DNA from: Eubacteriales bacterium
GTDB lineage: Bacteria; Bacillota; Clostridia; Oscillospirales; CAG-272
DNA: 64,000 nt
Direction of reading: 5' to 3'
Assembly: GCA_045656765.1 (NCBI GenBank)
Contig: JAZORU010000017.1
Location: 17,489 to 81,488, forward strand
Positions 19,078 to 40,636 of the stretch are shown here, piece after piece. The position numbers and the translations under genes are program-made. Position 1 is the stretch's first letter; each line of letters begins with the position of its first letter. The notes under the pieces were generated by a model. The model was not told where the DNA came from, ran no database searches, and worked only from the letters and a program-made list of their open reading frames with translations.

Positions 19078-19095
19078 TTTCCTTTTTTATCCTTT

Positions 19096-24842: not shown

Positions 24843-24938
24843 CAAAAAACTGCCGAGACGGTAAAACGTCCCGGCAGTTTTTGCGTATAAACAAACAAGG
24901 TTTTCGCCTTCTTGGTGAAAATCTTTTTTTATTTTTTT
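24843..24938 (+). terminator. Two tandem intrinsic terminators upstream of the phage-like operon
   Basis: AAAAACTGCCG...CGGCAGTTTTT (24843-24883) and AAGGTTTTCGCC-ttctt-GGTGAAAATCTT plus a long T tract (24897-24938). Confidence 0.75.
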
Positions 24939-25003
24939 AAAGTGTACGTTTTTCGGCGGTTTTGTTCGGTAGAATACAAATGCAGGCGAGACAGGAGGCA
25001 GAA

Positions 25004-25333
25004 ATGAAGAAAGAAAAGAAAGACAAAAAAGAGAACGTCAGCACAGACGAGGCAAGGAAGCTCGAAGGCATCTGGAGTCGCGCGATGGCGCTGAGGGGAC
25101 TTAAAAAGGTGCTCGGCGTGTCGCTTGAGGCGGCGAAGATCCCAAAGCTTGACGAGAACGGGGAAGTGGTTGAGATAAAATACAACCCGAGCGCCGCCAA
25201 CGCCGCGACAAAGGCTATCGAGACGGCGAACAAGATGCTCGGCTACAACCTTCCCGACGAGGACGAGGAGACGGATGAGGACGACGGCGAGATAACCGTC
25301 ATCTTTGAGGGAATGGAGGAATATTCGCTTTGA
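25004..25333 (+). CDS. Putative terminase small subunit (short, no evident HTH)
   Basis: Directly upstream of and overlapping terL; SAANAATKAIETANKMLG helix and acidic tail ending ITVIFEG resemble TerS C-terminal regions; AGGAGG RBS. Confidence 0.6.
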   Translation: MKKEKKDKKENVSTDEARKLEGIWSRAMALRGLKKVLGVSLEAAKIPKLDENGEVVEIKYNPSAANAATKAIETANKMLGYNLPDEDEETDEDDGEITVIFEGMEEYSL

Positions 25334-26670
25334 CACTTACGCTTTCTCCGCCTCACGAAAAGCAAAAGGAGTTTTTACTCGCTCGCACACGCTACGTGGC
25401 TTACGGCGGTGCGAGAGGCGGCGGCAAGAGCCATGCCGTCCGTCTGAAAGCTACGCTGCTCTGCCTCAGATACAGTGGGATCCGCGTGCTGATAGTGAGG
25501 CGCTCCTACCCCGAGCTATACGAAAACCATATAAAGATAATGACGAGGGAGCTTGCGGGCGTTGCTTCCTACAGGGACTCGGACAAGAGCCTGACCTTTA
25601 AAAACCAAAGCAGGATAAAGTTCGGCTACTGTTCATCTGACTCTGACCTGCTTCAGTATCAGGGAGTCGAGTACGACGTTATCTTTATGGATGAGGCAAC
25701 ACATTTTACCGAATATCAGTTTTCGGTAATAGGTGCCTGTATGCGAGGGGCAAACGATTTTCCGAAGCGCTTTTATCTCACCTGCAACCCCGGTGGAGTT
25801 GGGCACGCTTGGGTAAAGAGGCTGTTCGTTGACCGTGAATATAAAGAGGGAGAGTGTGCTGACAACTATACCTTTATAAAAAGCACGGTGTACGACAACA
25901 AGCCCTTAATTTCCTCCGACACCGAATACGTAAGCACGCTCAAAAACCTTCCGACCGAGCTCAGACGCGCGTGGCTCGACGGAGACTGGGACGTGTTTGC
26001 GGGACAATATTTTACCGAATTTTCAAGAGATATTCACGTATATGAAAGCTACTCTATTCCGCAGTGGTGGAAAAGATACAGAGCGTTTGACTACGGCCTT
26101 GATATGCTCGCCTGCTTATGGGCTGCAGTTGACGACTCGGGGGATATCTGGATATACCGTGAATACTGCGAGCCGAACCTTATCGTAAGCGAGGCGGCAA
26201 AGGTCATGCTTGAGCTTTCCCGAGATGAGAAAATAGTGACGACCGTAGCACCGCCCGATATGTACAATCGCCAGAAGGACACGGGTAAGAGCATGGCTGA
26301 GTGCTTCGAGGATGCGGGAGTTAAGCTCACTCGCGCAGACAACTCTCGAATACAGGGCTGGATGAATCTAAAGGAGTGGCTAAAGCCCAAAGCTGCGCCC
26401 GACGGCAAGAAGACGGCGAGGCTTCATATCTCAAGCGACTGCCGAGAGCTTATCAGATGCTTGCCCCAGCTTATGCACGACGAGCATTCAAGCATGGACG
26501 TATCAACCGAGCCGCACGAGATAACGCATATATGCGACGCTCTGAGATATATGTGTATGTACAGAAGCTCGGCTTCAAAGCAAAGGCCTTCTTTGAGCTT
26601 CGAGCAAAAATACCGCGAGCGCGCCATACGGGCGTGCCGCGGCGGTGTTGGGGGAGGATTTTTTACCTGA
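25330..26670 (+). CDS. Terminase large subunit
   Basis: Adenine-binding PHEKQ, Walker A YGGARGGGKS, Walker B VIFMDEA, motif III TCNPGG, nuclease AFDYG and HICDALRY. Confidence 0.93.
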   Translation: MTLTLSPPHEKQKEFLLARTRYVAYGGARGGGKSHAVRLKATLLCLRYSGIRVLIVRRSYPELYENHIKIMTRELAGVASYRDSDKSLTFKNQSRIKFGYCSSDSDLLQYQGVEYDVIFMDEATHFTEYQFSVIGACMRGANDFPKRFYLTCNPGGVGHAWVKRLFVDREYKEGECADNYTFIKSTVYDNKPLISSDTEYVSTLKNLPTELRRAWLDGDWDVFAGQYFTEFSRDIHVYESYSIPQWWKRYRAFDYGLDMLACLWAAVDDSGDIWIYREYCEPNLIVSEAAKVMLELSRDEKIVTTVAPPDMYNRQKDTGKSMAECFEDAGVKLTRADNSRIQGWMNLKEWLKPKAAPDGKKTARLHISSDCRELIRCLPQLMHDEHSSMDVSTEPHEITHICDALRYMCMYRSSASKQRPSLSFEQKYRERAIRACRGGVGGGFFT

Positions 26671-26695
26671 TACTACAAAAAATTTGGAGGAAAAC

Positions 26696-26884
26696 ATGAA
26701 AACGATTTTTAAAGTAAAGCGGAAATGCTCGGTGCCGGGGTGTGCTTCTGTTGACTGCTATGCGGCAAGCAGAGGCTCGGGGGGAGCAGTGAGCCTTTGC
26801 CGTGAATGTGCAAAAGAGCTGTATCTTGCACATTACGGCGAAAAAGCGCCGCACACAAGGAAAAAGGAGGACAAAGGTGACTGA
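26696..26884 (+). CDS. Small Cys-rich (putative Zn-binding) protein
   Basis: GGAGG RBS; CSVPGC...LCRECA. Confidence 0.6.
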   Translation: MKTIFKVKRKCSVPGCASVDCYAASRGSGGAVSLCRECAKELYLAHYGEKAPHTRKKEDKGD

Positions 26885-27095
26885 GATAATTTTCGTGCTT
26901 TTGTATCTTTTGGCGGTGCTGTGGCTTGAGCGATGTCACCGTGCGGAGAGACGGGAGCTATACGACCGCATAAGCTTTGATAAGTCCGAGGACTACGTCA
27001 AGCTTCGCGAAAAGAAAAAGCGTCAGATGCCCGAGCCCCCGTATATGAAGACCGCGAAAAAGTGGCGCAGTACAAAGGAGAGTGAGCACAGATGA
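26877..27095 (+). CDS. Small single-TM protein preceding the portal
   Basis: GGAGG then GTG; IIFVLLYLLAVLWL followed by ERRELYDRI; overlaps both neighbours. Confidence 0.6.
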   Translation: MTEIIFVLLYLLAVLWLERCHRAERRELYDRISFDKSEDYVKLREKKKRQMPEPPYMKTAKKWRSTKESEHR

Positions 27096-29059
27096 GCAGC
27101 TTAAAGGATATTTTTTTGAAAAAAGATGCGGCAGAGAAAAAGACCTCAGACAAGGACGTTTCCCCTCGCTTTTATAATGAGGATGGGGGAGAGGTATACG
27201 AGGAAGAGGTAGTTGCGTTTATAGCGGACGAGCTTGAACGCCGCCGCGAAGAGAGGCGCGGATGTGAGCTTCAGTGGAGACTCAACTCAAACTTCCTTCT
27301 CGGACATCAGAACTGCGATATAAACCCATATAGAAGCGAAGTGGAGGACAGAGAGGTACAGTACGAGTATATGCAGCGCGCTTGCTATAACCGCATAGCA
27401 CCTATCATTGATACGAGACTTGCCAACCTTGAAACAATGCGCTTCGATATGACGGTCACACCCGCAACCAACGAAATAGACGACTATGAGAAGGCGAACA
27501 TATCAACAAAGATTCTTTCCTATCTTAAAAGCTCTACCGACTTTGACAGCGTAAGACGCTCGCTTGTTGCATGGAGCGAGATGTGCGGCTCTGCTTTTGT
27601 GATGTCCTGGTGGGACAGAGACGCCGGTGCTGTGATAGGTACTGCGGAGCAGACGGATGCAGAGGGGAACAAGACCGAGATAGAGCTTCACGAGGGAGAC
27701 GTCAAATACGGCATCCTTACACCCTACGAGGTATATCCCGACAGCATAAATATACAGAGCATCAAGGAGCAGAGCTCTGTCATAGTCGAGCAGGTAATGA
27801 AAAGCGAGCGCGTATACGAGCTGTACGGTATAAAGCTTGAAGGCGGGACAGTCGAGACCTACGCACTTTCTCATACAGAGGGAGGCGGCGGTTTCGGGTA
27901 CCCTAATACCGATATGAGTCTCTCGCCCTGTATGGCGGAGGATTCGGTTAAGGTTATCTCGTACTTTGAGAGGGCTTCAAAGAAGCACCCGCACGGCAGA
28001 CTTATAATATGTGCCGCGGATAAGGTGCTTTTCTACGGAGCCTTGCCTTATGACGATATCCCGATAGCCCAGCTGAAAACAAAGGACGTACCCGGGCGGT
28101 TCTTTGGCAGAAGCGTGATTGAGGAGCTAATTCCGCTCCAGAGAGCTTATAACGGATGCAAAAACAAGATCCACGACTACATAAGGACTCTTGCTTCAAA
28201 TCCGCTTCTCGTTCCCGAGGGAAGCATCGACGATATTGAGTCTCTCGTTGAATGTGGCACAGCACCAGGCTCTATTATCGAGTACGATGCCGACAGAGGA
28301 AAGCCATCCCCGCTTATTTTCCAAAGCATTTCAAACGAGGTGCGCGAGGAGTGCGACGATATCGTGCGCGAGATGGAATACGTGGCGGGCGTTTCTCAGC
28401 TTATGGTTGCAGGCTCAAGACCGCAGGGTGTTACGAGCGGAACTGCCATTGAAAGACTGCAAAAAATTGATAACACACGTCTTTCCCTCGTGGCAGACCG
28501 CATAAGAAGCACCGTCAGAGACGTGGCTCTTACCTGGCTTAAAATATACAAGCGCCATGCAAAGACCTGCCGTCTCGTCGCTATTTCGGGACAGAACGAG
28601 ATGTCAAGCGTCTTTACCTGGACGGGTGACGATATCAATTCCTTTGATATCGTGTTTGATACCGAAAACGAGCTGAAAAACAGCGAGGAAAAGCAACGCG
28701 AAAATTTCCTTTACGCAATGTCTATGGGACTGTTCTCGGACGAGGACGGAAAGCTTCCGAGGGACTTCAAGGAAAGAGCGATAGAGATGCTAAGACTCGG
28801 TGCGTACGGTGCTCTTATGGGCGAGAATGAGCTTCAGCTTACCAATGCGAGAAGAGAGAACAATATGCTTGCGCAGGGAAGCTTGCCCGAGCTTGACCGA
28901 TATGACGACGATGCGCTTCATATATCCGAGCACAAGCGATTTGCCCTGCAGATGCGATTTAAGCTTCTGCGTAAAAAAGAGCCTGTTCTTGCGGCGGCGT
29001 TTGACGAGCATATTGCCGCGCACGCTACGAGACTTAAGCTAAAAGAAAAAGGAGAATAA
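27092..29059 (+). CDS. Portal protein (large, podovirus-like)
   Basis: 655 aa after the terminase; YNRIAPIID, FFGRSVIEELIPLQRAYN, GVTSGTAI. Confidence 0.82.
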   Translation: MSSLKDIFLKKDAAEKKTSDKDVSPRFYNEDGGEVYEEEVVAFIADELERRREERRGCELQWRLNSNFLLGHQNCDINPYRSEVEDREVQYEYMQRACYNRIAPIIDTRLANLETMRFDMTVTPATNEIDDYEKANISTKILSYLKSSTDFDSVRRSLVAWSEMCGSAFVMSWWDRDAGAVIGTAEQTDAEGNKTEIELHEGDVKYGILTPYEVYPDSINIQSIKEQSSVIVEQVMKSERVYELYGIKLEGGTVETYALSHTEGGGGFGYPNTDMSLSPCMAEDSVKVISYFERASKKHPHGRLIICAADKVLFYGALPYDDIPIAQLKTKDVPGRFFGRSVIEELIPLQRAYNGCKNKIHDYIRTLASNPLLVPEGSIDDIESLVECGTAPGSIIEYDADRGKPSPLIFQSISNEVREECDDIVREMEYVAGVSQLMVAGSRPQGVTSGTAIERLQKIDNTRLSLVADRIRSTVRDVALTWLKIYKRHAKTCRLVAISGQNEMSSVFTWTGDDINSFDIVFDTENELKNSEEKQRENFLYAMSMGLFSDEDGKLPRDFKERAIEMLRLGAYGALMGENELQLTNARRENNMLAQGSLPELDRYDDDALHISEHKRFALQMRFKLLRKKEPVLAAAFDEHIAAHATRLKLKEKGE

Positions 29060-29060
29060 C

Positions 29061-29711
29061 ATGAAAAAAACAGAACAAAAAGAAGAGATCCTCTCGGCAC
29101 CGGCACCCATCGTGGAGGGTGTCGAGGAGGTGCTCGATCCTGAGCTTTCCGAAGATAGTCTTCCCACGAAGGAAGAGCTTGCTTCGATGACGGAAGCTGA
29201 GAGAGCAGAGCTTTACAGGCAGATAGTTGATACGGTAGACCGAACGGTCGAGGACAGGGTAAATTCTCTTGCCGAGGAATACAAGAGAGGCATATCTGAT
29301 CTTCAGGATGCAAGCGTAAGAGGTGCTTTTGCTTCTTCCGAGAAGTTTTCGGGATTTGGCGAGAGCATTGCGGCAATCGATACGCTCATAGAAAAGGTGC
29401 CCGTTCTCAAAACCCTTCCCGCAGACGAAAAGTACACCGTAGCCTACCTAATAAACGAGGGCATAAAGGCAAGGGAGGTAAGATCGGGTATGAGTGCGGA
29501 GAGCCTGGTTTCTCTTATGAACTCGCGCCCCGACGCCATGCGTCTTTACGAGGCACAGAAAACCGAGGAGCTTTCCCGCAACTACAAGTCAACCCCTGCA
29601 TTTACGGCATCGGGCGGAAGCTCTGTTATGCCTGCAAACATTAAAAGCACGCCTAAGAATTTGGATGAGGCGAGCAGAGAAGCATATTCAAGCTTCGGTA
29701 TAAAAATATAA
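29061..29711 (+). CDS. Putative capsid scaffolding protein
   Basis: Acidic, helical, between portal and capsid; C-terminal PKNLDEA. Confidence 0.6.
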   Translation: MKKTEQKEEILSAPAPIVEGVEEVLDPELSEDSLPTKEELASMTEAERAELYRQIVDTVDRTVEDRVNSLAEEYKRGISDLQDASVRGAFASSEKFSGFGESIAAIDTLIEKVPVLKTLPADEKYTVAYLINEGIKAREVRSGMSAESLVSLMNSRPDAMRLYEAQKTEELSRNYKSTPAFTASGGSSVMPANIKSTPKNLDEASREAYSSFGIKI

Positions 29712-29738
29712 AAAAACAAAAACAAAGGAGAAAAAATT

Positions 29739-30968
29739 ATGTCACAGTTACTTACACAGATCGAAGGTATTTTGAAGGATAAATACCAGCCGGCAATAGC
29801 CAACCAGATAAACATCGAGCCTTCACCTTTCCTTGAAAAGATAAAGAAGGTTCCGCTTACCAACAACACAATCAAGTTCGCTGCTCCCTTCGGTATAAAC
29901 GGAGGCTTCGGCTTTGGTGCCGAGGGAAGCGCTACCCCCCGCTCAGGCGCTCAGAAGTACGTATCATTCTCTCTTGATGCGATTGATATGTACGTTGACG
30001 TAAAGATTTCAAACAAGACGGTTGAGCTTGCTTCCTCAAACGCATCGGCTATGATAAACGCTCTTGATACCGAAATTAAGGGAAGCTACGCATCTGCGAA
30101 GTGGAATCTCGGAAGAGCACTCTTCGGCGACGGCTCGGGCAAGCTTGCAAAGGTTACAAGCCTTCCTATGAAGGACGAAACGGCAAATTGCATTTATGTT
30201 GACGATACAAGCAAGCTCATTGAAGGTCTTATCGTTGACGTATATACCTACCGTACAGCAGACGGCATGACGCCCGTACTTGAGGAATGCAACAAGGGAC
30301 TTAGAATAATTTACGTTGACCACGATGGAAAGACCGTTTGCTTTGATAAAGCAGATTTCGACTGGAGTCAAAAGAATGCCGACGGTGTTTCATACGGATT
30401 TTTGACCGTTCAGAACAGCTACAACAGAGAGCTTTGCGGTCTCGGAGCTATTTTTGACAATACCGTTGACGAGCTTTACGGACTTAAGAAGAGCAAAAAC
30501 GAATGGATAAAGCCTATCGTTTACACTTGTGATAACAACGTTACCGATATTGATATCTATGCAGGCGTTAAAAAGGCTAAGGACTACAAGGGTGCAGATA
30601 TAGACCTTATTATGATGGGAGACGATGCGTTTAAGACCTATCAGGAATATATGCGTGCAAACAATATCGTAGTAACCGAAAAGCACAGATTCGTAGGTGG
30701 GGCGGTCGGCTACAAGGTGCTTGCCGGCAGCCAGGAGGTAATTATAGTAAACGAGCGTTTCGTTCCCAAAAACGAGGCGTGGGGTGTTGACACCAAGACC
30801 TTTATGCTTCAGTGTACACCTTGGAACTTTATGTCAAAGGACGGAGGAATTTTCGTTCCTATGGCTGATACCTCTATTTACAGAGCATTGCTTGCTTCTT
30901 ACGGTAACCTTATTTGCACTAATCCCGGCGGTTGCGTGAGATTTATAGCTTGCGCTTCTAATTCTTAA
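29739..30968 (+). CDS. Major capsid protein (HK97-like fold inferred)
   Basis: 409 aa, strong RBS; AEGSATP, RALFGDGSG, GLGAI, YGNLICTNPG; followed by a hairpin. Confidence 0.82.
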   Translation: MSQLLTQIEGILKDKYQPAIANQINIEPSPFLEKIKKVPLTNNTIKFAAPFGINGGFGFGAEGSATPRSGAQKYVSFSLDAIDMYVDVKISNKTVELASSNASAMINALDTEIKGSYASAKWNLGRALFGDGSGKLAKVTSLPMKDETANCIYVDDTSKLIEGLIVDVYTYRTADGMTPVLEECNKGLRIIYVDHDGKTVCFDKADFDWSQKNADGVSYGFLTVQNSYNRELCGLGAIFDNTVDELYGLKKSKNEWIKPIVYTCDNNVTDIDIYAGVKKAKDYKGADIDLIMMGDDAFKTYQEYMRANNIVVTEKHRFVGGAVGYKVLAGSQEVIIVNERFVPKNEAWGVDTKTFMLQCTPWNFMSKDGGIFVPMADTSIYRALLASYGNLICTNPGGCVRFIACASNS

Positions 30969-30983
30969 TTTAGTTGTTTGATA

Positions 30984-31007
30984 TGCGTCGGGGAAATCCC
31001 CGACGCA
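30984..31007 (+). terminator. GC-rich hairpin after the capsid gene (attenuator or mRNA stabiliser)
   Basis: TGCGTCGGGG-aaat-CCCCGACGCA with only a weak U tract. Confidence 0.65.
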
Positions 31008-31030
31008 CTTCAAAAGAAAGGAGTGAGTGT

Positions 31031-31366
31031 ATGGACACAAAAAAGCTGTATAACGACGTTTACGCAAACACAAAGATAGGAGAAGCGCCTTTCAGACGCG
31101 CTTTCAACGGAGCGGTCAGATATATAGCCTCACGATACGGATTAAACTACGTGACCGACGATGCAGAGTCGCTTTATATAAAAAATACAGGGGATGAAAG
31201 CTCGCTCTACGACGTTTACTTTGCTGCAGTGAAGGAATATATAGAAAGGACGGGTGAGCCTGCCACGGAAAAATTCGGCAGCTTTACCTCGCTCGTTGAT
31301 ATAGCGTTCCGTACCGTATGGAAGGAAAAAAATAAGGGCAGAAGGATAAGGGGGTGCAGTTTTTGA
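31031..31366 (+). CDS. Hypothetical virion (head-completion) protein
   Basis: AAGGAG RBS, ATG 31031; position after the capsid gene. Confidence 0.55.
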   Translation: MDTKKLYNDVYANTKIGEAPFRRAFNGAVRYIASRYGLNYVTDDAESLYIKNTGDESSLYDVYFAAVKEYIERTGEPATEKFGSFTSLVDIAFRTVWKEKNKGRRIRGCSF

Positions 31367-31965
31367 TACTGAGATCAAACGTAAAATCAAGCGAGCTTAT
31401 AAATAAAATAAAGGATACGCTCGAGGTTTTCACACCCCCGGGCGACAACGTTATATACGATATTCTCAACCGTTTTATAGAAGGTCTTTACTCGGGTGTC
31501 ATAAACGATATCCGAGAGGCAACGCTCGAAAAAAATGAAGATGGTGTCTACAGCCTCTCATATTACGAGAACGGAGAAACGGCAGACGTGCGGGTATGCG
31601 ACGTAGTAAAGGTCGTGTGCGGAGAGCACGAGTACGAGAGAGTAGGCGAAGAGTATCCCGCGCGGCTTTGCAGTGAGGACGAGCATTTTTATAAAATGAC
31701 GGATGACGGGGTGCTAAGCCTTTATTCAACTAAGCCCGAGGATGAGAGAATACTTGTATATTTCAGAGCAGTTCCCCCGCTTCATACGGCAGACGACGAT
31801 AGAGAAATAGAGCTACCAAGTGAGTTTATGGATCTTGCAGAGGCCAAGCTCTATTCTGAGATCTACCGCGTGCTTGGCGAGGATGCGCTGTGTGCCAACT
31901 GGACAGAGCAATACAATATGCTGATGACTCGTTTCGGGGTATGGCTGGAGGTGCATGGGCTTTGA
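31363..31965 (+). CDS. Putative head-tail adaptor protein
   Basis: TTG overlapping the upstream TGA; VYFRAVPP...IELPSEFMDL...YN pattern typical of adaptors. Confidence 0.55.
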   Translation: MILRSNVKSSELINKIKDTLEVFTPPGDNVIYDILNRFIEGLYSGVINDIREATLEKNEDGVYSLSYYENGETADVRVCDVVKVVCGEHEYERVGEEYPARLCSEDEHFYKMTDDGVLSLYSTKPEDERILVYFRAVPPLHTADDDREIELPSEFMDLAEAKLYSEIYRVLGEDALCANWTEQYNMLMTRFGVWLEVHGL

Positions 31966-33368
31966 GAGGGCAAAGCATAAAGACACAGCACTCAAGCGTG
32001 CCAAGCAAAAGAAAAGAATACGTATATTACAGACACGGGCTTGGCACTTTGAGAAAGGACAAGGAATACGATACCGACGGAATGTGTGAAATCAGCCAGA
32101 TTGATACAAGTGATTATCCGTTTGTTAAATCAGCAGGCACGGCTAAGTATTTGTGGTTGAAATATACCGGTAAGGTGCTTGATCTTATAATGTGCGACGG
32201 AATCATCTATGCGGCTGTACATAGCGAGGACGCTATATATATGTACGTGTGTGACCCCCAGAAAGTCACCATTGTGCAAACGTATATATGCAATACAAAA
32301 GACAACGATCCGTCGCATTATGCACTTGTCAGATATAACGAATTTCCTTCTAATATGAATCCGTTCGTAGGTGGATATCTAAAAAAAATTCTTTTGCTTC
32401 CGCTTTTTTTTTCTTACGACATACAAGACAACAAAGCGGAAAAATTACCAAGCAATGCTGCCCCTATCTCTACGATGGGTACGATGTTTGTGTCAAGATT
32501 GTTTTCGGCGTGCAAAGGCAATATCTTTGCATCGGAATTCAATAAAGTAAATTCATACAGCTTTGATACCGCCGATAACTCAAGCTCGGCAAATGCCTGG
32601 ATGAGTACCACGCAGTCAAACGTTAAGGCGGACGGAGATATCACGGCACTTGCCGTTTACGACGGGCACGTCGTGCTCTTTAAGCGGGATTATATGATGC
32701 AGGTATATAATAACGAAAACCCTTTCAGGCTTGTTGAGATCGGATCTTACGGATGTATATCAAAGAAAGCGGTCTGTGAGTTTGACGGAAAGCTTGCTTT
32801 CATAAGTCCTCAAGGACTTATGCTCTATTCGGGAGGCTACCCGTATTTTATAGGAGAGGAGCTTAACGTAAAGGATTGGAGTGGGTCAATGCTTTGCGCG
32901 GGAGGTAAATATCTGTACGTTTACGTAGCTTCCGAAAAATGCGTTTACGTTTATGACGCTGAGCACAACACGTGGGGGCACAGAGACTCAAAACCCTTGA
33001 GCTTTATGTGCGCTGACCATAACGGAGCATATTACGTGCGTAATAACGATATTATCCGATTTGGCGGAAACGCACCTAAGGAGTTCAGCCTTACCACAGA
33101 CAGAAACTCTCTTGGCTATAACGGAAGAAAACGTATAAGCTCTATCGGTTTTACTGCCATTCTCGGAGATGGAGCAGAGCTTTACGTAGATCTTATAGAC
33201 GACGCGGGAACCGTTTATGAGACGGTAAGCGTAATTGGTGCAGGAGAGCATATGGTATCAGAAAAAATAAAAGGAGTGAGCTTGACCTACGCTCAGCTTA
33301 CCTTCAGAGGTAAGGGAGAGGTAAAGATAGGCGAGTATCGGATAAAATTCAGAAAGGAGGACGAATAA
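31962..33368 (+). CDS. Putative tail nozzle / packaged-DNA stabilisation protein (beta-propeller)
   Basis: GDITALAVYDGHVVLFK, YGCISKKAVCEFDGKLAFIS..GLMLYSGG, VYVYDAEHNTW. Confidence 0.65.
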   Translation: MRGQSIKTQHSSVPSKRKEYVYYRHGLGTLRKDKEYDTDGMCEISQIDTSDYPFVKSAGTAKYLWLKYTGKVLDLIMCDGIIYAAVHSEDAIYMYVCDPQKVTIVQTYICNTKDNDPSHYALVRYNEFPSNMNPFVGGYLKKILLLPLFFSYDIQDNKAEKLPSNAAPISTMGTMFVSRLFSACKGNIFASEFNKVNSYSFDTADNSSSANAWMSTTQSNVKADGDITALAVYDGHVVLFKRDYMMQVYNNENPFRLVEIGSYGCISKKAVCEFDGKLAFISPQGLMLYSGGYPYFIGEELNVKDWSGSMLCAGGKYLYVYVASEKCVYVYDAEHNTWGHRDSKPLSFMCADHNGAYYVRNNDIIRFGGNAPKEFSLTTDRNSLGYNGRKRISSIGFTAILGDGAELYVDLIDDAGTVYETVSVIGAGEHMVSEKIKGVSLTYAQLTFRGKGEVKIGEYRIKFRKEDE

Positions 33369-33369
33369 T

Positions 33370-34098
33370 ATGACTTTTGAAGAGATGGAAAGCGAAATAA
33401 TCAGGCTTAAGGGGATGCTTGACGAGCGTATATCCGAGGACGTAAAATACCGACGTATGATCGAAGACCTTGTGAACAACCTTACGTTCGACAATATGCC
33501 CGCCATAAAGAAAACCCTTAAGGGAAGCATTGAGAAAATATCGCGGATATCCGGCGATATAGACGGCATTTATCAGGGGATAAGCTCAGTAGAGCAAAGA
33601 GTAAACGAGCAGGGTGCCGAGCTTTCTCTTGTAGTATCCGAAACCGAGGGAGAGAAAACGATAAATACCGCAAGCATAATTGCGGCGATAAACGATTCTG
33701 CTTCAAACATAAAGCTGTCTGCTGACAAAATAGAGTTTGAAGGTGCTGATATCAGCATAGATACGAGAATGCTGAAGGTTAACGCAGAGGGGCGAGTTGA
33801 GTTCTCTTCCTCCGTTATTGCAGACAATTATTACGGTATGAGCGGATATTTTAACAGCAGGGTCGATCTTGGAAGCGCAAACGGAAGCACCGGATATGCG
33901 TATATGCACTCAAACGAGTGCGACGGAATCGAAATTCACGGTGCAGGCGGTGTCATTTTGAGCACTGAAGCTGACAATAAGGGTGTTTCGGGTGACGTCG
34001 ACGTATTTGCTGACAGTATTCGCCTCAACGGTAACAGAGTGCTTACCGATTCGGATGCCGATATAGCATATCTGCGTATGGTGCTTGGCAATTATTAA
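33370..34098 (+). CDS. Short tail fibre/needle-like protein
   Basis: N-terminal coiled coil, SIIAAINDSASNIKLSADKIEFEG, beta-rich C-terminus. Confidence 0.55.
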   Translation: MTFEEMESEIIRLKGMLDERISEDVKYRRMIEDLVNNLTFDNMPAIKKTLKGSIEKISRISGDIDGIYQGISSVEQRVNEQGAELSLVVSETEGEKTINTASIIAAINDSASNIKLSADKIEFEGADISIDTRMLKVNAEGRVEFSSSVIADNYYGMSGYFNSRVDLGSANGSTGYAYMHSNECDGIEIHGAGGVILSTEADNKGVSGDVDVFADSIRLNGNRVLTDSDADIAYLRMVLGNY

Positions 34099-34111
34099 AA
34101 GGAGAATTAAG

Positions 34112-35041
34112 ATGATAACAGTAAAAGACGTAGCGGTTGCGGTTTCCGAGATAGTATTTTCAAACGAAGGAAGCTATGCAAGCGTAAACAAAGACGACAA
34201 CGGAGCGCTGTCAATAGGCAAGCTTCAATGGCATGGCGAGAGGGGCAGGGAGCTGCTCTATAAAATATGCGATGGAGACACGGAGCTTCAAAATATGCTC
34301 GGCGGGCTTTGGAGCGAGGTTTTGACGTCAGGCTCGTTTAAAGCTCGCACGCTTGATAAAGATGAAGCACAAGCGGTAAAAAGCGTTCTTTCAAGTGAAA
34401 GATCAAAGCAGATACAGGATGCTCTCGCAATAGAGGATATCTGCCTTGATATTCAAAGAGGCGTTGGTTACGGACTTTCTGACTGCGGAGCTCTTATGTA
34501 TTTTGCCGACGGAGCTAACCAGTACGGAAGGTACTCTAAGCTATGGAAGGATGCGTGCGAGATCGCGCTGTCTCGCGGCGGCACTCTTGAAGAGCTTCAC
34601 AATGCGATACTTTCTCTGACCGATGCAAAAAGAGAAAGAAGAGTCAGAACATACGAAAAAATAAAGAAAACGGAGATGGCAGGGTGCTGTCTCGGAGAGG
34701 AGAAGGAAATGAACGTAACGTACAAAACGGAGACGGTCACGCATAAGGTAGTGCGCGGAGATACACTTTCGAAAATAGCTAAAAAGTACGGAAGCGATAT
34801 CGACTCAATACTTGAAGCAAACCGTGAAAAATACAAAGCAATTACCCGTAATTATATCGTTGCCGGCTGGATTCTTGCCATACCTGTAAAAAAAGAGGTA
34901 AGCGAGTATGAGCTTGCTCTTGAAGCGTTAAAAAAAGCGGGTGTTCTCGGCGGCGTTATTATCGAGGAGAGTATCGGTGAGCCTACGGTAATTGTGCTTT
35001 ACAGAGTGCTCTGTCTTCTCGGATGGGAGTCGGGGAAATGA
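34112..35041 (+). CDS. Lysozyme-like peptidoglycan hydrolase with a LysM domain (endolysin or virion lysin)
   Basis: NEGSYASVN.DDNGALSIGKLQW; LysM HKVVRGDTLSKIAKKYG...IVAGWILAIP. Confidence 0.75.
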   Translation: MITVKDVAVAVSEIVFSNEGSYASVNKDDNGALSIGKLQWHGERGRELLYKICDGDTELQNMLGGLWSEVLTSGSFKARTLDKDEAQAVKSVLSSERSKQIQDALAIEDICLDIQRGVGYGLSDCGALMYFADGANQYGRYSKLWKDACEIALSRGGTLEELHNAILSLTDAKRERRVRTYEKIKKTEMAGCCLGEEKEMNVTYKTETVTHKVVRGDTLSKIAKKYGSDIDSILEANREKYKAITRNYIVAGWILAIPVKKEVSEYELALEALKKAGVLGGVIIEESIGEPTVIVLYRVLCLLGWESGK

Positions 35042-35319
35042 ACGATGCGGCAATAGGCATAATATGCACGGTGCTCGGCGCTCTTTTCGGCTTTTCCTCA
35101 TACCGAAGATACGTAAAGCGCGACGGAGCAGAGCAGGGGCGCGAGCGCTCGGACATTGAGTATATAAAGCGCCGTACTGACGATATTCTGCTCGAGCAAA
35201 AAAACACGAATATGACTCTTTCCTCTCACGCTGAGAGAATAACTCGGGTAGAGGAAAGCGTTAAGCAAGCCCACAAGCGAATAGACGGCATGTCGGGCTC
35301 AACACACGATTTTCAGTAA
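35038..35319 (+). CDS. XhlA-like single-TM coiled-coil lysis-associated protein
   Basis: N-terminal TM; DIEYIKRRTDDI...ERITRVEESVKQAHKRID. Confidence 0.65.
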   Translation: MNDAAIGIICTVLGALFGFSSYRRYVKRDGAEQGRERSDIEYIKRRTDDILLEQKNTNMTLSSHAERITRVEESVKQAHKRIDGMSGSTHDFQ

Positions 35320-35331
35320 AGGAGAGAAAAT

Positions 35332-35658
35332 ATGCAAATAACAACTTTAATTTCTATTATCGCTGCGGTAGTCTGTATATCACTTTTTCTATGGGTATAC
35401 AGAGGAGGACTTAAGCGTTACGCAAAGCAGCTGCTTATGTGCCTTGTTGAGAGAGCGGAGCAGACCTTCGGCGCGGGAACGGGAAGACTTAAATATTCGG
35501 CGGTTGCATCAAAGCTGTACGAGATAATGCCCCCTGTTTTTAAATTTATCTTTTCCGAGAAGGCTATAGCGTATATGATAGAAGAGGCTGTGTCCGAAAT
35601 GAAGGAATGCCTTGGTATTGGGGATTCGGACAAGTGCGGTGAGGAGTGCTCGGTATGA
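35332..35658 (+). CDS. Holin (LL-H-like)
   Basis: N-terminal TM then LVERAEQTFGAGTGRLKYSAV...IEEAV. Confidence 0.65.
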   Translation: MQITTLISIIAAVVCISLFLWVYRGGLKRYAKQLLMCLVERAEQTFGAGTGRLKYSAVASKLYEIMPPVFKFIFSEKAIAYMIEEAVSEMKECLGIGDSDKCGEECSV

Positions 35659-36452
35659 AAAAGGATCCTTTAAGAGACTATATAGCCAAGCAGGCGATAG
35701 ACGCAGTAAACAAGCTTGTAGCAAAAAAGGATGACGAAACGTCAACGAACAATCAGACGAATAACACCTCGAACAAGGGCACTTCAAGCTCAAAGACCTC
35801 ATCTTCGGAAAAGATAAACCAGAGATACGAAAACACGCTTGCATCTGCAAGCTCCGGACAGCTTGACGTACAGAAAAAGATCGATTCGTTTTTAGGCGAT
35901 CTCACAGGCAAATACGACGCTTTTCTTGATAAGCTGACAGAGGCAAGCTACAAAGACACGGATTATTATGGAAGTATCGTTTCCGAGTACGAGGAGCTCG
36001 GTAAAAGAATGGCGTATGACGCATCTGCTTCGGCTGCTGCCTCAAACGGCGGTAATTTTGACACTCTCGGCGCTGCAAACGCTCACCGCCAGATGCTTTC
36101 CTATAAAAAAGCAGGAGAACAAGCGGCAAGAGACGCTTACAGCGAAGAGATAGACAGATATGCAAAGGGGCTTTTGAACTATGCGTCCGATATCTCGGAT
36201 GCGTATAAGCTTCTCTCGGACTCTGCGGGTAAAGCAGATGACTACAATATCTCGATGCTCGATGCCCTTGAAGGTTACAGAAGACTTCAGGACGAAAAGG
36301 AAGCGACCAAGCAAGAGACGATCATTAAGGAGCTTAGGGAAAAGCTTGATAAAGACAATAAATCAAGCCGCTATTTTACCTATGCTCAAATGCTTGCTAC
36401 GGTATATCCCGAATACAGAGAGGAAATACAAAAATTATTCCTTTCAAAATAA
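35655..36452 (+). CDS. Hypothetical helical protein, possible DNA ejection/pilot protein
   Basis: Ala/Ser-rich helical core ASASAAASNGGNFDTLGAANAHRQ; last gene of the operon, ATGA overlap. Confidence 0.5.
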   Translation: MKKDPLRDYIAKQAIDAVNKLVAKKDDETSTNNQTNNTSNKGTSSSKTSSSEKINQRYENTLASASSGQLDVQKKIDSFLGDLTGKYDAFLDKLTEASYKDTDYYGSIVSEYEELGKRMAYDASASAAASNGGNFDTLGAANAHRQMLSYKKAGEQAARDAYSEEIDRYAKGLLNYASDISDAYKLLSDSAGKADDYNISMLDALEGYRRLQDEKEATKQETIIKELREKLDKDNKSSRYFTYAQMLATVYPEYREEIQKLFLSK

Positions 36453-36500: not shown

Positions 36501-36545
36501 AAAAAAACGGACGGTTGCGCAAGAAAAGCAACTGTCCGTTTTTTT
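36501..36545 (+). terminator. Intrinsic terminator closing the phage-like operon
   Basis: AAAAAAACGGACGGTTGC...GCAACTGTCCGTTTTTTT. Confidence 0.85.
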
Positions 36546-38614: not shown

Positions 38615-39907
38615 TTACTCAACTATGCTTTTTAATGCCTCTTTTATTTCCGAGTACATATAAAGCGAGCCCGCGCATAAAACAGGCTTGCCTTGCGCCC
38701 TTGCCGCATCTGTTGCAGCTTTTACTGCTTCCTTTGCGGTTTTGTATGCGTGAGCGCGGACACCTATATTTCGGTAAAGCTCGGCGAGCTCATCGGACGT
38801 CAGCGAGCGCGGATTTGCAGGCGTGAGTGTGAACGTCTCGCATACTACATCAGATAGCATCTTTGCCATGTCGGTGTAGTCCTTGTCAGCCATAACACCC
38901 GTCAGAAGTACGAGCTTTTCTTTGCCGAAATAATGCTTGATGCTCCTGACAGTCTCAGCTACACCCTGCGGATTGTGCGAGCCGTCAAAGAAGATAAGCG
39001 GCTCGTCGCAGAGCTTCTCGAATCTTGCCTTCCACTTCGTTTTTTTCATACCGCGTATGACCGCATCCTCACTTATTTCGTATCCAAGCTCTCGCAACAT
39101 ATCGACCGCCTCAAGCACGTTTGCCGCATTTTTCGGCTGATACAGAGAGAGCAGGGGAATCTTGATATTGCGGTGGCTCTTGTAATCAAGCGTGCTTCCG
39201 TCAATCGAACTATTGCTTACCGATAGGGCAGAGAGGTCTGTAGAATAAACGCGCGAGCCGCACTCTGCGGCTTTTTCTCTTATTACGGAATCAACATCGG
39301 CCCTGTCATTCTCTGCCGTTGCCGAGCCGATAAGTACGGGCGTGCCGCTTTTTATAATCCCCGCTTTTTCGAGTGCAATTTCCGTCACGGTATTTCCGAG
39401 GATCGCCGTATGATCGAGAGCTATTCCCGTGATTACGTCGAGCACGGGAGTTTTTATTATGTTCGTTGCATCGAGCCTGCCGCCAAGCCCCACCTCAAGC
39501 ACGACTATATCGCATTTTTCGTGTGCGAAATATAAAAGCCCTATTGCCGTTATCAGTTCGAATTCTGTCGGCGGATCAGCCATTTTATCGGCGATACGGC
39601 TCGCTTCTTCTGTAAAGCGTGCAAGTGCATCTCTGTCGATAGGAGTGCCGTTTATCATTATTCGCTCTTCAAAATATTCAATATAAGGGGAAGTGAAAAG
39701 CCCAACCTTCAGCCCTGCCTCACAGAGCACCGACGAGAGCATAGAGCAAAACGAGCCCTTGCCGTTAGTGCCGCCTACGTGCACGTATTTCAGCTTGTCC
39801 TCGGGATTGCCGAGTCCTGCGAGAAGCTCGCTTATACGTGATAGCCCCGGTCTGCTTCCTCGCCAGTCGGTTGCGTGTATATATTTTAGTGCCTGTTCGT
39901 AAGTCAT
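38615..39907 (-). CDS. folC: Folylpolyglutamate synthase/dihydrofolate synthase
   Basis: HVGGTNGKGS, FTSPY, EVGLGGRLDATN, DGSHNP, AGSLY. Confidence 0.95.
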   Translation of the reverse strand: MTYEQALKYIHATDWRGSRPGLSRISELLAGLGNPEDKLKYVHVGGTNGKGSFCSMLSSVLCEAGLKVGLFTSPYIEYFEERIMINGTPIDRDALARFTEEASRIADKMADPPTEFELITAIGLLYFAHEKCDIVVLEVGLGGRLDATNIIKTPVLDVITGIALDHTAILGNTVTEIALEKAGIIKSGTPVLIGSATAENDRADVDSVIREKAAECGSRVYSTDLSALSVSNSSIDGSTLDYKSHRNIKIPLLSLYQPKNAANVLEAVDMLRELGYEISEDAVIRGMKKTKWKARFEKLCDEPLIFFDGSHNPQGVAETVRSIKHYFGKEKLVLLTGVMADKDYTDMAKMLSDVVCETFTLTPANPRSLTSDELAELYRNIGVRAHAYKTAKEAVKAATDAARAQGKPVLCAGSLYMYSEIKEALKSIVE

Positions 39908-40460: not shown

Positions 40461-40537
40461 AATAAAAAACCTCCTTTCCCGTAATTCACTCGGAAAAAGA
40501 GGATAGCACCGCGTGAGCGGTGTGACACTTGTCCTTA

Positions 40538-40636
40538 TGAAGCGGGATGCAGAACAGACACCGCAAGAAAAAACTTTTCGTTCACCTGACAACTCCCCGT
40601 TCAAGTGACACTTTACGCGCCTGTCCTTACTCTTCT
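40538..40636 (-). ncRNA. THF (tetrahydrofolate) riboswitch
   Basis: Minus strand AGAGTA...GCGTAAAGTG...GAACGGGGAGTTGTC...AACGAA...GCGGT...GCATCCCGCTTC follows the THF consensus; upstream of folT-folC. Confidence 0.9.

What the first reader, a model, noticed from the sequence alone, without database searches (positions are those of the whole stretch)
25004..36452. Candidate podovirus-type gene transfer agent: a complete head, short-tail and lysis operon stranded in a clostridial chromosome
Seen: 11.4 kb with 15 co-oriented, uninterrupted ORFs (TerS-like, TerL with intact ATPase and nuclease motifs, portal, scaffold, capsid, adaptor, nozzle, fibre, lysin, two lysis membrane proteins, one extra). 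There is no integrase, repressor, replication, recombination or tape-measure gene and no att duplication I can find. The block starts exactly at terS, is bounded by intrinsic terminators, and sits between ordinary host genes (CNNM transporter, 5'-nucleotidase) with no debris. By eye its codon habits (GAG, CTT, ATA) resemble the host's. Known: RcGTA, VSH-1 and PBSX are host-retained phage structural clusters that package host DNA, whereas decaying prophages usually keep ragged ends and pseudogenes. Inference: a domesticated, host-controlled particle-producing system such as a GTA. I know of no characterised short-tailed GTA in Clostridia.
Basis: partly seen in the sequence, partly recalled or inferred. 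Interest (0 to 1): 0.92.

Follow-up and report, generated by a model that had tools for sequence, protein, structure and literature searches.

The report
Host-kept short-tailed phage particle operon
An 11.4 kb block of phage head, short-tail and lysis genes with no means to replicate or move has been kept intact in several genera of uncultured gut Clostridia, which makes it a strong candidate for a gene-transfer-agent-like particle system of a kind first described in Faecalibacterium.

Summary
Positions 25004-36452 carry 15 co-oriented intact ORFs: a small basic/acidic protein in the TerS position, TerL, a P22-type portal, scaffold, major capsid, adaptor, a P22-gp10-like tail hub, a LysM lysin, two holin-like proteins and others. 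Terminators bound the block, ordinary host genes flank it, and there is no integrase, att repeat or debris. Codon use cannot be told from the host's.

The comparative evidence favours domestication.
- The block sits at the same site in 3 of 5 species of the genus.
- The two species without it form a derived clade, so one loss is the simplest history.
- Relatives occur in 30 of 401 genomes and 7 of 97 genera of the family, always as one copy.
- In MCP, portal and TerL trees each host genus is monophyletic.
- Flanks are syntenic within genera.
- dN/dS is 0.03-0.42, and dS is roughly that of the flanking host genes.
- 215 flank ORFs from 33 loci showed no recurrent integrase.

Real phage relatives (about 40% MCP identity) lie on 33-52 kb viral contigs.

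Particle production, DNA content and transfer are untested. A podovirus-like GTA in gut Clostridia (FpGTA, Faecalibacterium) is already published, so this is a new member of a known kind, not a first.

The parts
24845..24925 (+). Two terminator-like hairpins between the CNNM stop codon (24839) and the block. The first is a 16-pair bidirectional hairpin; the second is followed by a T-run.
   Evidence: 24845-24882 and 24897-24925; sequence
24943..24975 (+). Conserved non-coding motif TGTACGnTTnTCGGCG (24943-24958), followed by a -10-like TAGAAT (24970-24975). It is a candidate regulated promoter or operator of the operon.
   Evidence: Aligned and conserved upstream of the first gene in G000, G002 and G004. 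Unique in the G000 assembly at 0 mismatches. Not found before the blocks of other genera. The function is inferred.
25004..25333 (+). g01: a 109-aa protein in the small-terminase position. It has a K/R-rich N-terminal tail, a conserved core (IWSR..AL.GLK / NPSAANAATKAIE.AN.MLGY) and an acidic C-terminal tail. No recognisable DNA-binding domain.
   Evidence: ORF (GGAGG before the ATG at 25004). Homologues in types A and C. No Pfam hit at E<=5, no PDB profile hit, no similarity to the Terminase_2 TerS of type B, and no significant fold match. The TerS role is inferred from position.
25330..26670 (+). Large terminase (446 aa) with intact ATPase and nuclease motifs.
   Evidence: Terminase_3, phrog_979, phrog_2; motifs
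26645..26884 (+). g03: small protein with a CxxC...CxxC pattern. The start is uncertain (an internal ATG lies near 26696). Function unknown.
   Evidence: conserved by tblastn in G002, G004 and several other loci; no family
26802..27095 (+). g04: small protein with one hydrophobic helix. Function unknown.
   Evidence: tblastn in G002 and L048; only a weak phrog_15610 hit, E 0.0045
27092..29059 (+). Portal protein (655 aa), P22 type.
   Evidence: P22_portal 3.1e-22, SU10_portal 5.4e-08, phrog_156 1.4e-26
29061..29711 (+). g06: probable scaffolding protein (216 aa). No head protease gene was seen in the block.
   Evidence: Its position between portal and capsid; conserved in family F5; no family hit. 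The role is inferred.
29739..30968 (+). Major capsid protein (409 aa).
   Evidence: phrog_14242 5.8e-35. The ESM Atlas neighbours are SU10_MCP-type clusters, which is a lead only. 1279 homologues found.
30974..31366 (+). g08: small virion-module protein (head completion or connector?). The true start is probably the ATG near 31031.
   Evidence: homologues align from residue 20; family F6 in 14 loci; no family hit
31354..31965 (+). g09: head-to-tail adaptor (203 aa).
   Evidence: SU10_adaptor, E 0.0013, 19.6 bits, under the 27-bit cut-off. Its position and conservation support the call. The call is weak.
31890..33368 (+). g10: tail hub / nozzle protein, an all-beta propeller of the P22 gp10 / T7 gp12 class. 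The start is probably the ATG at 31941.
   Evidence: AF2 model with a 20-sequence alignment: pLDDT 85.8, pTM 0.84. Foldseek hits: Pa223 tail 1.3e-18, P22 gp10 3.9e-14 (TM 0.62/0.65), Sf6 gp8, the PhiM1 nozzle, the SU10 tail and T7 gp12. Also phrog_511 on the C-terminal part.
33370..34098 (+). g11: 242-aa protein after the hub, with an N-terminal coiled coil. It may be a fibre, needle or plug.
   Evidence: no significant PDB profile hit; only weak phrog_1775. The role is inferred from position.
34085..35041 (+). g12: endolysin with a C-terminal LysM domain. The N-terminal catalytic domain could not be assigned.
   Evidence: LysM 6.8e-10; phrog_380 endolysin 3.5e-11
35023..35319 (+). g13: 98-aa protein with an N-terminal membrane helix, holin-like.
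   Evidence: phrog_1863 3.3e-21, function unknown; sequence. The lysis role is inferred.
35332..35658 (+). g14: holin-like membrane protein (108 aa).
   Evidence: phrog_15303 2.2e-16; phrog_6918 holin 1.2e-07
35646..36452 (+). g15: 268-aa helical protein with a conserved AAxNGGNxDSYAAANAHRQ core. It is the last gene of the block in types A and C. Function unknown; it may be an internal or ejection protein.
   Evidence: 11 homologues; no significant family or PDB hit
36507..36545 (+). Intrinsic-terminator-like hairpin (12-pair stem with one G-T pair) plus a T-run. It lies just before the conserved promoter of the 5'-nucleotidase gene.
   Evidence: Read from the sequence (not listed by the scan). 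The promoter region after it aligns with the empty site of G003.

Best explanation
The block is a phage-derived operon that cannot replicate or move on its own. The host lineage has inherited it vertically and kept it under purifying selection. That makes it a GTA-like ('viriform') element of podovirus type.

Shown here: it encodes the parts recognised for a DNA-filled short-tailed particle and for lysis of the producer cell. These are TerL, a P22-type portal, scaffold, capsid, adaptor, a gp10-like tail hub, a LysM endolysin and holin-like proteins. It has no integrase, att site, repressor or replication genes.

Inferred mechanism:
1. The operon is transcribed as one unit from a regulated promoter that lies just after two terminators. 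A 16-nt motif conserved across the genus marks this promoter. The signal and the regulator lie outside the block.
2. Procapsids assemble on the portal with the scaffold.
3. TerL, together with the small g01 protein, fills heads by the headful mechanism. g01 has no recognisable DNA-binding domain.
4. Because the block can neither excise nor replicate, the DNA available for packaging is the host chromosome.
5. Adaptor, hub and g11 close the head.
6. Holin and lysin release the particles from a sacrificed subpopulation.

Whether the particles deliver DNA to kin (a true GTA) or act in some other way is open. The confidence given (0.55) is for the full claim that it packages host DNA as a GTA-like agent; for the narrower claim of a host-retained, selected, non-autonomous particle operon I would give about 0.85.
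For: Anatomy.

No mobility genes:
- No PF00589 hit on the carrying contigs of G000, G002, G004 or G007.
- No junction repeat.
- Host genes on both sides.

History within the genus:
- The block is at the same site with all 15 genes intact in G002 and G004.
- Host tree from five flank genes: (G000,(G002,(G004,(G001,G003)))), with supports 94/97, 96/98 and 100/99. A clade of the three carriers is rejected at p-AU 0.037. One loss is therefore the simplest history.
- The element tree does not reject the host topology (p-AU 0.113).

The wider family:
- 36 loci in species-representative genomes.
- 30 of 401 genomes and 7 of 97 genera of the host family, one copy each and no stops. Counts: g4 6 of 7, g1 3 of 5, g9 1 of 2. 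The hit list gave 7 genomes in g63, 5 in g77, 7 in g100 and 1 in g115; denominators for these four were not printed.
- Every genus is monophyletic in the MCP tree (supports 100/>=99; 5 label changes, which is the minimum; 0 of 200 shuffles as low). The same holds in the portal and TerL trees.
- Flanks are shared within genera.

Selection and age:
- dN/dS is 0.03-0.42 for all block genes. dS is roughly that of flanking host genes in the same pairs: 0.16-0.29, with one gene at 0.58, against 0.33; 1.03-1.34 against 1.25-1.33.
- Codon use cannot be told from the host's.

Flanks of related loci: 104 upstream and 111 downstream ORFs from 33 loci gave only host-type families among those printed. No integrase or recombinase occurred in 2 or more members.

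Phage relatives: relatives with 38-41% MCP identity sit on 33-52 kb viral contigs and carry extra giant ORFs and fibres. Close relatives appear in IMG/VR only on 4-14 kb contigs.

Precedent: FpGTA particles of this general design package 8.4-8.9 kb of host DNA (PMC12946183, section 9 read).
Against: - No expression, particle, packaging or transfer data exist for this block. No RNA run was available, and the laid contigs were uninformative.
- The distribution is patchy: 90 of 97 sampled genera of the family gave no hit, as did 374 of 375 genomes of other families in the order at E<=1e-10. The block was lost in G001 and G003, so it is dispensable.
- The family is mosaic, as phages are. Type B carries a different TerS/TerL (36% identity, on a very long branch), and type C has a rearranged gene order. 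This fits either several separate captures or continued exchange with phages.
- Chromosomal sites differ between genera.
- g01 is not recognisably a TerS.
- No regulator has been identified.
- Within the genus the element tree puts G004 first (84/93), while the host tree puts G000 first.
- Tex alone does not resolve the genus and FolC is noisy. The host tree rests on five linked genes.
- Head capacity is unknown. The head might hold the whole 11.4 kb, which would be unlike classical GTAs.
- The Pfam flank tables show only the top 25 of 73 and of 64 families, so a single integrase somewhere in the flanks cannot be excluded.
Confidence: 0.55

Rival explanations
1. The block is a host-retained particle system whose selected function is not gene transfer. 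It might make PBSX-like killer particles aimed at competing strains, drive programmed lysis that releases DNA or public goods, or act as a decoy or interference device against related phages.
For: All the evidence for domestication applies equally. The block carries its own lysis cassette. The FpGTA authors themselves leave open whether their particles deliver DNA or act like PBSX (PMC12946183, Discussion passages). No clear ejection or internal virion proteins were recognised, whereas the real phage relatives carry giant ORFs that the block lacks.
Against: TerL keeps intact ATPase and nuclease motifs in all 23 copies aligned, and a portal and scaffold are kept. A pure killing device would not obviously need DNA packaging, although PBSX also packages DNA (recalled). 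There is no contractile or bacteriocin-type tail; the hub is of the P22 gp10 type.
Confidence: 0.2
2. The block is a helper-dependent mobile element, or an integrase-less phage remnant that a co-infecting or resident phage switches on. It could be satellite-like, or an in-situ packaging unit that drives lateral transduction of the neighbouring chromosome.
For: No regulator is encoded in the block, and a conserved operator-like motif precedes it. Modules are swapped between genera as in phages. Close relatives were called viral in IMG/VR. G002 and G004 hold other phage-type TerL genes elsewhere.
Against: The block has no integrase, replication or excision functions and no att site. It holds a fixed, syntenic position within genera, with dS like its flanks, which is not the pattern of a moving element. 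It encodes a full virion and lysis set, so a helper would be needed only for regulation.
Confidence: 0.1
3. The block is a dead prophage remnant drifting neutrally. It is simply what was left after deletion of the early region.
For: Only the late module is present. The block is absent from two species of the genus, with a clean site in G003. The distribution across the family is patchy.
Against: All 15 ORFs are intact in three species whose synonymous sites are saturated (dS above 1.3). dN/dS is 0.03-0.42 throughout the family. Each carrier genome has a single intact copy with no stops. A non-coding upstream motif is conserved.
Confidence: 0.04
4. The block is part of a complete temperate phage whose early, integration and replication genes lie elsewhere in the genome or beyond an assembly break.
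For: G000 is only 69% complete, and G004 is fragmented at the block.
Against: In G000, G002 and G007 the block lies inside long contigs with host genes directly on both sides. The same is seen in the many related loci on contigs up to 333 kb.
Confidence: 0.03

Closest known systems
FpGTA of Faecalibacterium prausnitzii (PMC12946183, Nat Commun 2026; also held as bioRxiv 10.1101/2024.11.15.623857). Abstract, section 9 and Discussion passages were read; supplements were not seen.
   Same: Both are structural-only phage-like operons of about 10-11 kb in gut Clostridia. Both encode a small protein in the TerS position with no evident DNA-binding domain, then TerL, portal, scaffold and capsid. Both have short-tail (podovirus-like) genes plus holin and endolysin, and both are conserved across species of a genus. 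FpGTA is shown to make roughly 40 nm particles holding 8.4-8.9 kb of host DNA.
   Different: FpGTA is split into two loci about 125 kb apart: locus I (10.5 kb) for head and packaging, locus II (5.5 kb) for tail and lysis. Here everything lies in one 11.4 kb operon. No function is shown here.
RcGTA-type, Bartonella and Brachyspira (VSH-1) gene transfer agents. Classification as viriforms: PMC9662315 (listing and abstract only). Details are recalled.
   Same: All are phage-derived head, tail and packaging clusters that have no integration or replication genes, are inherited vertically, are under purifying selection, and are released by lysis.
   Different: Those elements are siphovirus- or myovirus-like, occur in Proteobacteria or Spirochaetes, have known host regulators (recalled), and have small heads shown to carry random host DNA. 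This one is P22/SU10-like and short-tailed, occurs in Clostridia, and has unknown regulation, capacity and cargo.
PBSX of Bacillus subtilis (mentioned in PMC12946183; details recalled).
   Same: Both are defective phage-like elements of a Gram-positive host, kept in the chromosome, that lyse the producer and (for PBSX) package host DNA.
   Different: PBSX has a contractile tail and its own repressor and sigma-factor control, and it kills rather than transfers DNA (recalled). None of these regulators or tail genes is in this block.
Virion modules of P22/Sf6-like and SU10-like podoviruses.
   Same: The portal is in the P22_portal/SU10_portal family. The tail hub has the fold of P22 gp10, Sf6 gp8 and the SU10 and T7 nozzles. 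There is a weak SU10 adaptor hit. SU10_MCP-type clusters are the nearest in the Atlas, which is a lead only. The block has a scaffold gene and no protease gene.
   Different: Sequence identity is very low: 10-13% in the fold matches. No tailspike, ejection-protein set, early genes or lysogeny genes are present, and the total is only 11.4 kb.
Uncultured 33-52 kb viral contigs in IMG/VR (L122, L123, L124, L127).
   Same: They share the packaging, head and tail-hub module in the same order: TerL 54-55%, portal 42-43%, MCP 38-41%, plus adaptor and hub. g11 is seen in L122 and L127, and g01 in L123.
   Different: They are three to five times longer and carry giant ORFs of 1105-1373 aa, a 973-aa fibre and an M23 lysin. 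They are probably true phages of the stock from which the block derives.

Membership tests
Gene transfer agent / viriform (general definition) | A phage-derived structural and packaging gene cluster in the chromosome that lacks integration, replication and lysogeny genes | tested here: met
   the same holds for the flanks of 33 related loci
Gene transfer agent / viriform (general definition) | Vertical inheritance with the host and purifying selection | tested here: met
   The block lies at the same site in 3 species. The host tree implies one loss. Host genera are monophyletic in three gene trees. Flanks are syntenic within genera. dN/dS is 0.03-0.42 and dS is roughly that of the flanks. Above genus level the evidence is weaker.
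Gene transfer agent / viriform (general definition) | Particles carry random host DNA with no enrichment of the encoding locus | not testable with these tools
   No virome or raw-read data could be used. The runs found are kept as low-depth contigs only.
Gene transfer agent / viriform (general definition) | Head capacity smaller than the encoding locus | not testable with these tools
   The T number and capacity cannot be read from the sequence.
Gene transfer agent / viriform (general definition) | Production under host regulation | tested here: inconclusive
   There is no regulator in the block. A 16-nt motif upstream is conserved in the genus and unique in the assembly. Its binding partner is unknown.
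Gene transfer agent / viriform (general definition) | Delivery of the packaged DNA to recipient cells | not testable with these tools
   This needs culture work.
FpGTA family (Faecalibacterium) | Sequence homology to FpGTA I proteins (capsid RCH50849.1 and portal RCH50851.1, as named in the paper) | tested here: inconclusive
Indirect evidence: no Faecalibacterium title among the 36 loci, and the MCP profile hit 1 of 375 genomes of other families in the order. Whether Faecalibacterium was among those genomes is not known.
FpGTA family (Faecalibacterium) | Two separate operons: I for head and packaging, II for tail and lysis | tested here: not met
   Here there is a single contiguous operon, 25004-36452.
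FpGTA family (Faecalibacterium) | A small terminase with no evident DNA-binding domain | tested here: inconclusive
   g01 has no recognisable DNA-binding domain, but it has no recognisable TerS fold either.
FpGTA family (Faecalibacterium) | Short-tail (podovirus-type) structural genes | tested here: met
   gp10-like hub fold; P22-type portal; no tape measure or sheath gene
Temperate prophage | Integrase or recombinase, att duplication, and repressor and replication genes | tested here: not met
PBSX-like defective prophage | Own Xre-type repressor and late sigma factor, and a contractile tail | tested here: not met
   None of these is among the 15 ORFs. The features that define PBSX are recalled.

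The most novel reading that the evidence does not exclude
This is an independent capture of a podovirus into a self-contained, single-operon GTA that has co-diverged with at least five genera of uncultured gut and rumen Clostridia.

It would sit beside a second class of compact blocks found with a TerL-type query in 42 of 61 relatives; the one example annotated starts with a sigma factor, then TerL, portal and capsid. Together they would mean that domesticated short-tailed particle operons are a common and recurrent feature of this order. They could also be the unidentified loci behind the GTA-like DNA packaging reported for Oscillospiraceae and Christensenellaceae.

A bolder variant is that the head holds as much as or more than the 11.4 kb operon. 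The element could then carry itself between kin, or it could package in place and transduce the neighbouring chromosome laterally.
Probability: 0.3. Interest if true: 0.8.

Novelty: new member of a known kind. Interest (0 to 1): 0.6.

Why it matters
Few gene transfer agents are known, and only one podovirus-like example in gut Clostridia (FpGTA) has been described. The same study saw GTA-like packaging in other clostridial families but could not name the loci responsible.

This block offers a concrete candidate locus that is easy to recognise. It is one operon of 15 genes. It is near-fixed in the carrier genera with printed counts (g4 6 of 7, g1 3 of 5), lies at conserved sites, and its evolutionary signature is that of a host gene.

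If it makes DNA-carrying particles, it would be a route of gene flow among abundant uncultured rumen and gut anaerobes. It would also show that capture of short-tailed phages has happened repeatedly.

There is a practical consequence too. Virus-prediction tools already file these blocks as viral contigs (IMG/VR), which inflates prophage counts and distorts host links in gut viromics.

Tried and rejected
Near-identity search of the whole block against 50,697 phage records found no match. The capsid by tblastn found only 11 actinophage records at 22-26% identity. Neither points to an active known phage.

Sequencing runs: 16 gut-metagenome holders were listed, the best holding 0.22 of the words. 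No RNA holder was listed. Laying four runs gave only short, low-depth contigs of relatives. No contig bridged a junction. One odd joint in X2 (26201 back to 24922, with 36 letters between) was not followed up. No conclusion about depth, excision or expression was drawn.

g01 as a small terminase:
- Pfam at E<=5 gave nothing.
- A PDB sequence profile gave nothing.
- hhalign against the type-B Terminase_2 proteins gave nothing.
- The AF2 model (pLDDT 72) had no significant Foldseek match. The best E was 0.42, with faint winged-helix look-alikes.

Profiles of g10, g15 and g11 against PDB sequences gave nothing significant. Only the fold search settled g10.

The upstream motif was sought elsewhere. 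It occurs once in the assembly and is absent before the blocks of other genera. No regulon could be defined. I could not fit it to a known sigma-factor consensus; this was by eye, from recall, and is not a test.

Single-gene host trees were of little use: Tex left the genus unresolved and FolC was noisy, so I used a five-gene concatenate.

The roughly 50% TerL hits in other genera turned out to share only TerL with this block. They belong to other elements.

An ancestral empty site in G003 was considered and set aside in favour of loss, because of the host tree. Three independent insertions at one site without an integrase are less parsimonious. They are not excluded.

The supplements of PMC12946183 and its figshare data were not seen, and they may list MAGs or loci that bear on this block.

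Literature searches found no paper other than PMC12946183 that describes a short-tailed GTA-like element in Clostridia. The library does not cover most subscription journals.

Full report
WHAT IS THERE

The window is part of contig C17 of a 1.23 Mb, 69%-complete assembly. Between 25004 and 36452 lie 15 co-oriented ORFs on the + strand, with small overlaps or gaps.

Family searches identify:
- a large terminase (Terminase_3 3.4e-14; phrog_979 9.4e-45);
- a P22-type portal (3.1e-22);
- a major head protein (phrog_14242 5.8e-35);
- a weak SU10-type adaptor (E 0.0013, under the cut-off);
- a LysM endolysin (6.8e-10);
- two small membrane proteins (phrog_1863; phrog_15303 and holin phrog_6918).

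The 492-aa ORF was modelled with a 20-sequence alignment (pLDDT 85.8). Its fold is that of podovirus tail hub or nozzle proteins: Pa223 1.3e-18, P22 gp10 3.9e-14 with TM 0.62/0.65, Sf6 gp8, and the SU10 and T7 nozzles. The short tail is therefore real.

The TerL ATPase and nuclease motifs are intact and conserved in 23 relatives.

The first gene (109 aa from the ATG at 25004) has a basic tail, a conserved core and an acidic tail. It matches no TerS family, profile or fold. Its role rests on position alone.

The roles of the scaffold, g08, g11 and g15 are also inferred from position (searches gave nothing).

BOUNDARIES AND SURROUNDINGS

Two terminator-like hairpins follow the CNNM gene. A hairpin with a T-run follows the last ORF. 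The intergenic gaps are 164 and 139 bp.

The junctions share no repeat of 9 bases or more. No tRNA is adjacent.

The neighbours are host genes. On the left are Tex and CNNM. On the right are 5'-nucleotidase, a DAG-kinase-like gene and FolC. Further out lie a SigF operon, ComM, an ECF S-component, a radical-SAM gene, an EamA transporter and a choloylglycine hydrolase.

The assembly's two tyrosine recombinases are on other contigs.

GC, GC3 and codon use fall inside the host's range: the RSCU distance is 0.357 against a median of 0.401 for host windows, and 67% of 643 host windows are at least as far.

THE GENUS

The four other species of the genus were examined.

G002 and G004 carry all 15 genes, collinear and intact, directly before the same 5'-nucleotidase, DAGK and FolC genes. 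Identities range from 37% to 83%, much like the flanking host genes at 50-89%.

The left flank varies:
- G000: CNNM, then the block.
- G002: CNNM, a 248-aa ORF, a 473-aa ORF on the other strand, then the block.
- G004: host peptidase M3, HD and TIM-barrel genes, then the block.

G003 has CNNM, a 249-aa ORF and 5'-nucleotidase side by side, which is an empty site. G001 shows no block gene next to either flank, and neither genome gave a capsid hit (completeness 86% and 88%).

A tree of five flank genes (2163 columns), rooted with two other genera, gives (G000,(G002,(G004,(G001,G003)))) with supports 94/97, 96/98 and 100/99. It rejects a clade of the three carriers (p-AU 0.037). The simplest history is presence in the ancestor of the genus and one loss.

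A seven-protein element tree puts G004 first (84/93), but it does not reject the host order (p-AU 0.113).

A 16-nt non-coding motif, followed by a -10-like hexamer, is conserved before the first gene in all three carriers. It is unique in the assembly.

THE WIDER FAMILY

The capsid has 1279 homologues at E<=0.001. The best 120 are 57-97% identical and many lie on contigs far longer than a phage, up to 333 kb. A profile search of 1.84 billion cluster representatives found 1607 clusters.

A scan of species-representative genomes returned 36 loci. Their titles name gut and rumen MAGs of Eubacteriales, Oscillospiraceae and Clostridia. They show three architectures:
- Type A, as in this window.
- Type B, with a different TerS/TerL (36% identity).
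- Type C, with the portal moved behind the capsid.

From 33 of the 36 loci I took every flank ORF of 100 aa or more. The three loci left out were those already studied. The 104 upstream ORFs hit 73 Pfam families, and the 111 downstream ORFs hit 64. The 25 families printed for each set are transporters, regulators, ribosomal proteins, SmpB, GidB, ParB and the like, plus the blocks' own Terminase_2 and M23 lysin. No integrase or recombinase occurs in two or more members. Single occurrences below the printed list cannot be excluded.

In the host family the capsid profile hit 30 of 401 genomes and 7 of 97 genera, always as one copy without stops. The hits are concentrated: g4 6 of 7, g1 3 of 5, g9 1 of 2. 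In the hit list g63 has 7 genomes, g77 has 5, g100 has 7 and g115 has 1; denominators for these four were not printed.

In the rest of the order only 1 of 375 genomes hit at E<=1e-10.

In the capsid tree (28 rows) every genus is one clade with support 100/>=99. It needs 5 label changes, which is the minimum, and 0 of 200 shuffles were as low. The portal and TerL trees say the same. They also pair g1 with g100, as the Tex tree does among the few outgroups sampled.

Flank genes are shared among species within g1, g100, g77, g63 and partly g4. They are not shared between genera.

dN/dS is 0.03-0.42 for every block gene in every pair where dS could be computed. dS of block genes is roughly that of flanking host genes in the same pair.

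PHAGE RELATIVES

IMG/VR holds close relatives (57% or more capsid identity) only on 4-14 kb contigs. One of these, L048, starts at g01 and ends in g13.

Relatives at 38-41% capsid identity sit on 33-52 kb viral contigs. They carry the same module order plus giant ORFs of 1105-1373 aa, a 973-aa fibre and an M23 lysin. These look like true phages of the ancestral stock.

READING

The block is not an active prophage. It has no integration, replication or lysogeny genes, no att site, and a fixed site.

It is not neutral debris either. Its ORFs stay intact across saturated synonymous divergence, dN/dS is low, and an upstream motif is conserved.

It behaves like a host gene cluster that builds a packaging-competent short-tailed particle and lyses the cell. 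That is the definition of a GTA-like element up to the point where experiments are needed.

I put about 0.85 on 'host-retained and selected, non-autonomous particle operon'. I put about 0.55 on the fuller claim that it packages host DNA as a GTA-like agent.

The main rival keeps the domestication but changes the purpose: killing, lysis or interference. A helper-dependent element comes next. A dead remnant or a split prophage is unlikely.

Points against a simple 'one ancient GTA' story:
- the patchy spread across genera;
- different sites in different genera;
- phage-like module swaps between types A, B and C;
- the loss in two species of the genus.

WHAT IS KNOWN

Six literature searches found one directly relevant paper, PMC12946183. 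I read the abstract, section 9 and passages of the Introduction and Discussion; I did not see the supplements.

It describes FpGTA in Faecalibacterium:
- a 10.5 kb operon of ten ORFs: a TerS with no evident DNA-binding domain, TerL, portal, scaffold, capsid and hypotheticals;
- a separate 5.5 kb operon with baseplate, fibre, receptor-binding, holin and endolysin genes;
- capsids of about 40 nm carrying 8.4-8.9 kb of host DNA.

[quoted passage not shown] They also saw GTA-like packaging in Oscillospiraceae and Christensenellaceae without finding the loci.

The present block is therefore not the first of its kind. It is a distinct case: one operon, another host clade, and a capsid family almost confined to one bacterial family in the searches made. 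Homology to FpGTA could not be tested.

VERDICT

Novelty: a new member of a known kind. Interest: 0.6.

Noticed in passing
L085 (G045:C1:1634000-1653999), about 5800-17500 on the minus strand; TerL-type hits: A different compact block was seen in a complete genome of another family. It runs: sigma factor (189 aa), small HTH protein, TerL (55% identical to ours), portal (phrog_156), a 292-aa capsid (phrog_267), a tail protein, a 674-aa virion protein and a 533-aa fibre, followed by a host tRNA methyltransferase. TerL of this type was found in 42 of 61 relatives, mostly once per genome. It shares only TerL with our block. It may be a second, more widespread class of structural-only elements, possibly of the FpGTA type.
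   Followed up: partly
window 40538-40636 (-): A THF riboswitch (85 bits) lies before the ECF S-component gene (39936-40604) and FolC. This looks like an ordinary folate uptake and polyglutamylation operon.
   Followed up: no
window 17833-19425 (-): A sporulation-type operon lies about 6 kb upstream of the block. It holds a 109-aa ORF, an anti-sigma kinase (HATPase_c_2) and a sigma-70-family factor with regions 2-4. It looks like spoIIAA-spoIIAB-sigF. No link to the block was tested.
   Followed up: no
L025 7876-9297 (-) in G002: A 473-aa ORF that looks secreted, with a Thr- and Asn-rich N-terminal region, sits between the 248-aa ORF and the block in G002 only. It could be cargo or just a neighbour.
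   Followed up: no
window 38615-39907 (-) compared with L104: FolC of G000 is 57% identical to that of a g100 genome, but only 51-53% identical to FolC in its own genus. The gene either evolves fast or has been exchanged. This is why FolC alone gave a noisy tree.
   Followed up: partly
L043 4447-9019 (G001:C71): G001 has about 4.7 kb with three extra ORFs between FolC and the DAG-kinase-like gene. G000, G002, G003 and G004 lack this insert.
   Followed up: no
window 26201 and 24922, run X2 (table 5c): One low-depth contig of a related organism joins 26201 back to 24922 with 36 other letters between. It may reflect a different arrangement in a relative, or an assembly artefact.
   Followed up: no
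window 26645-26884 and homologues: A small protein with two CxxC pairs lies between TerL and the portal. It is conserved across types A and C and in IMG/VR relatives. It is zinc-ribbon-like and its role is unknown.
   Followed up: no
L061, L082, L083 (g100), about 5510-7312: In three g100 species the g01-like reading frame and TerL appear as one ORF of 587-600 aa. This could be a fusion, or simply a shared frame without an intervening stop.
   Followed up: no
window 44718-45692 (+): A choloylglycine (bile salt) hydrolase family gene (1.3e-93), which fits a gut habitat.
   Followed up: no
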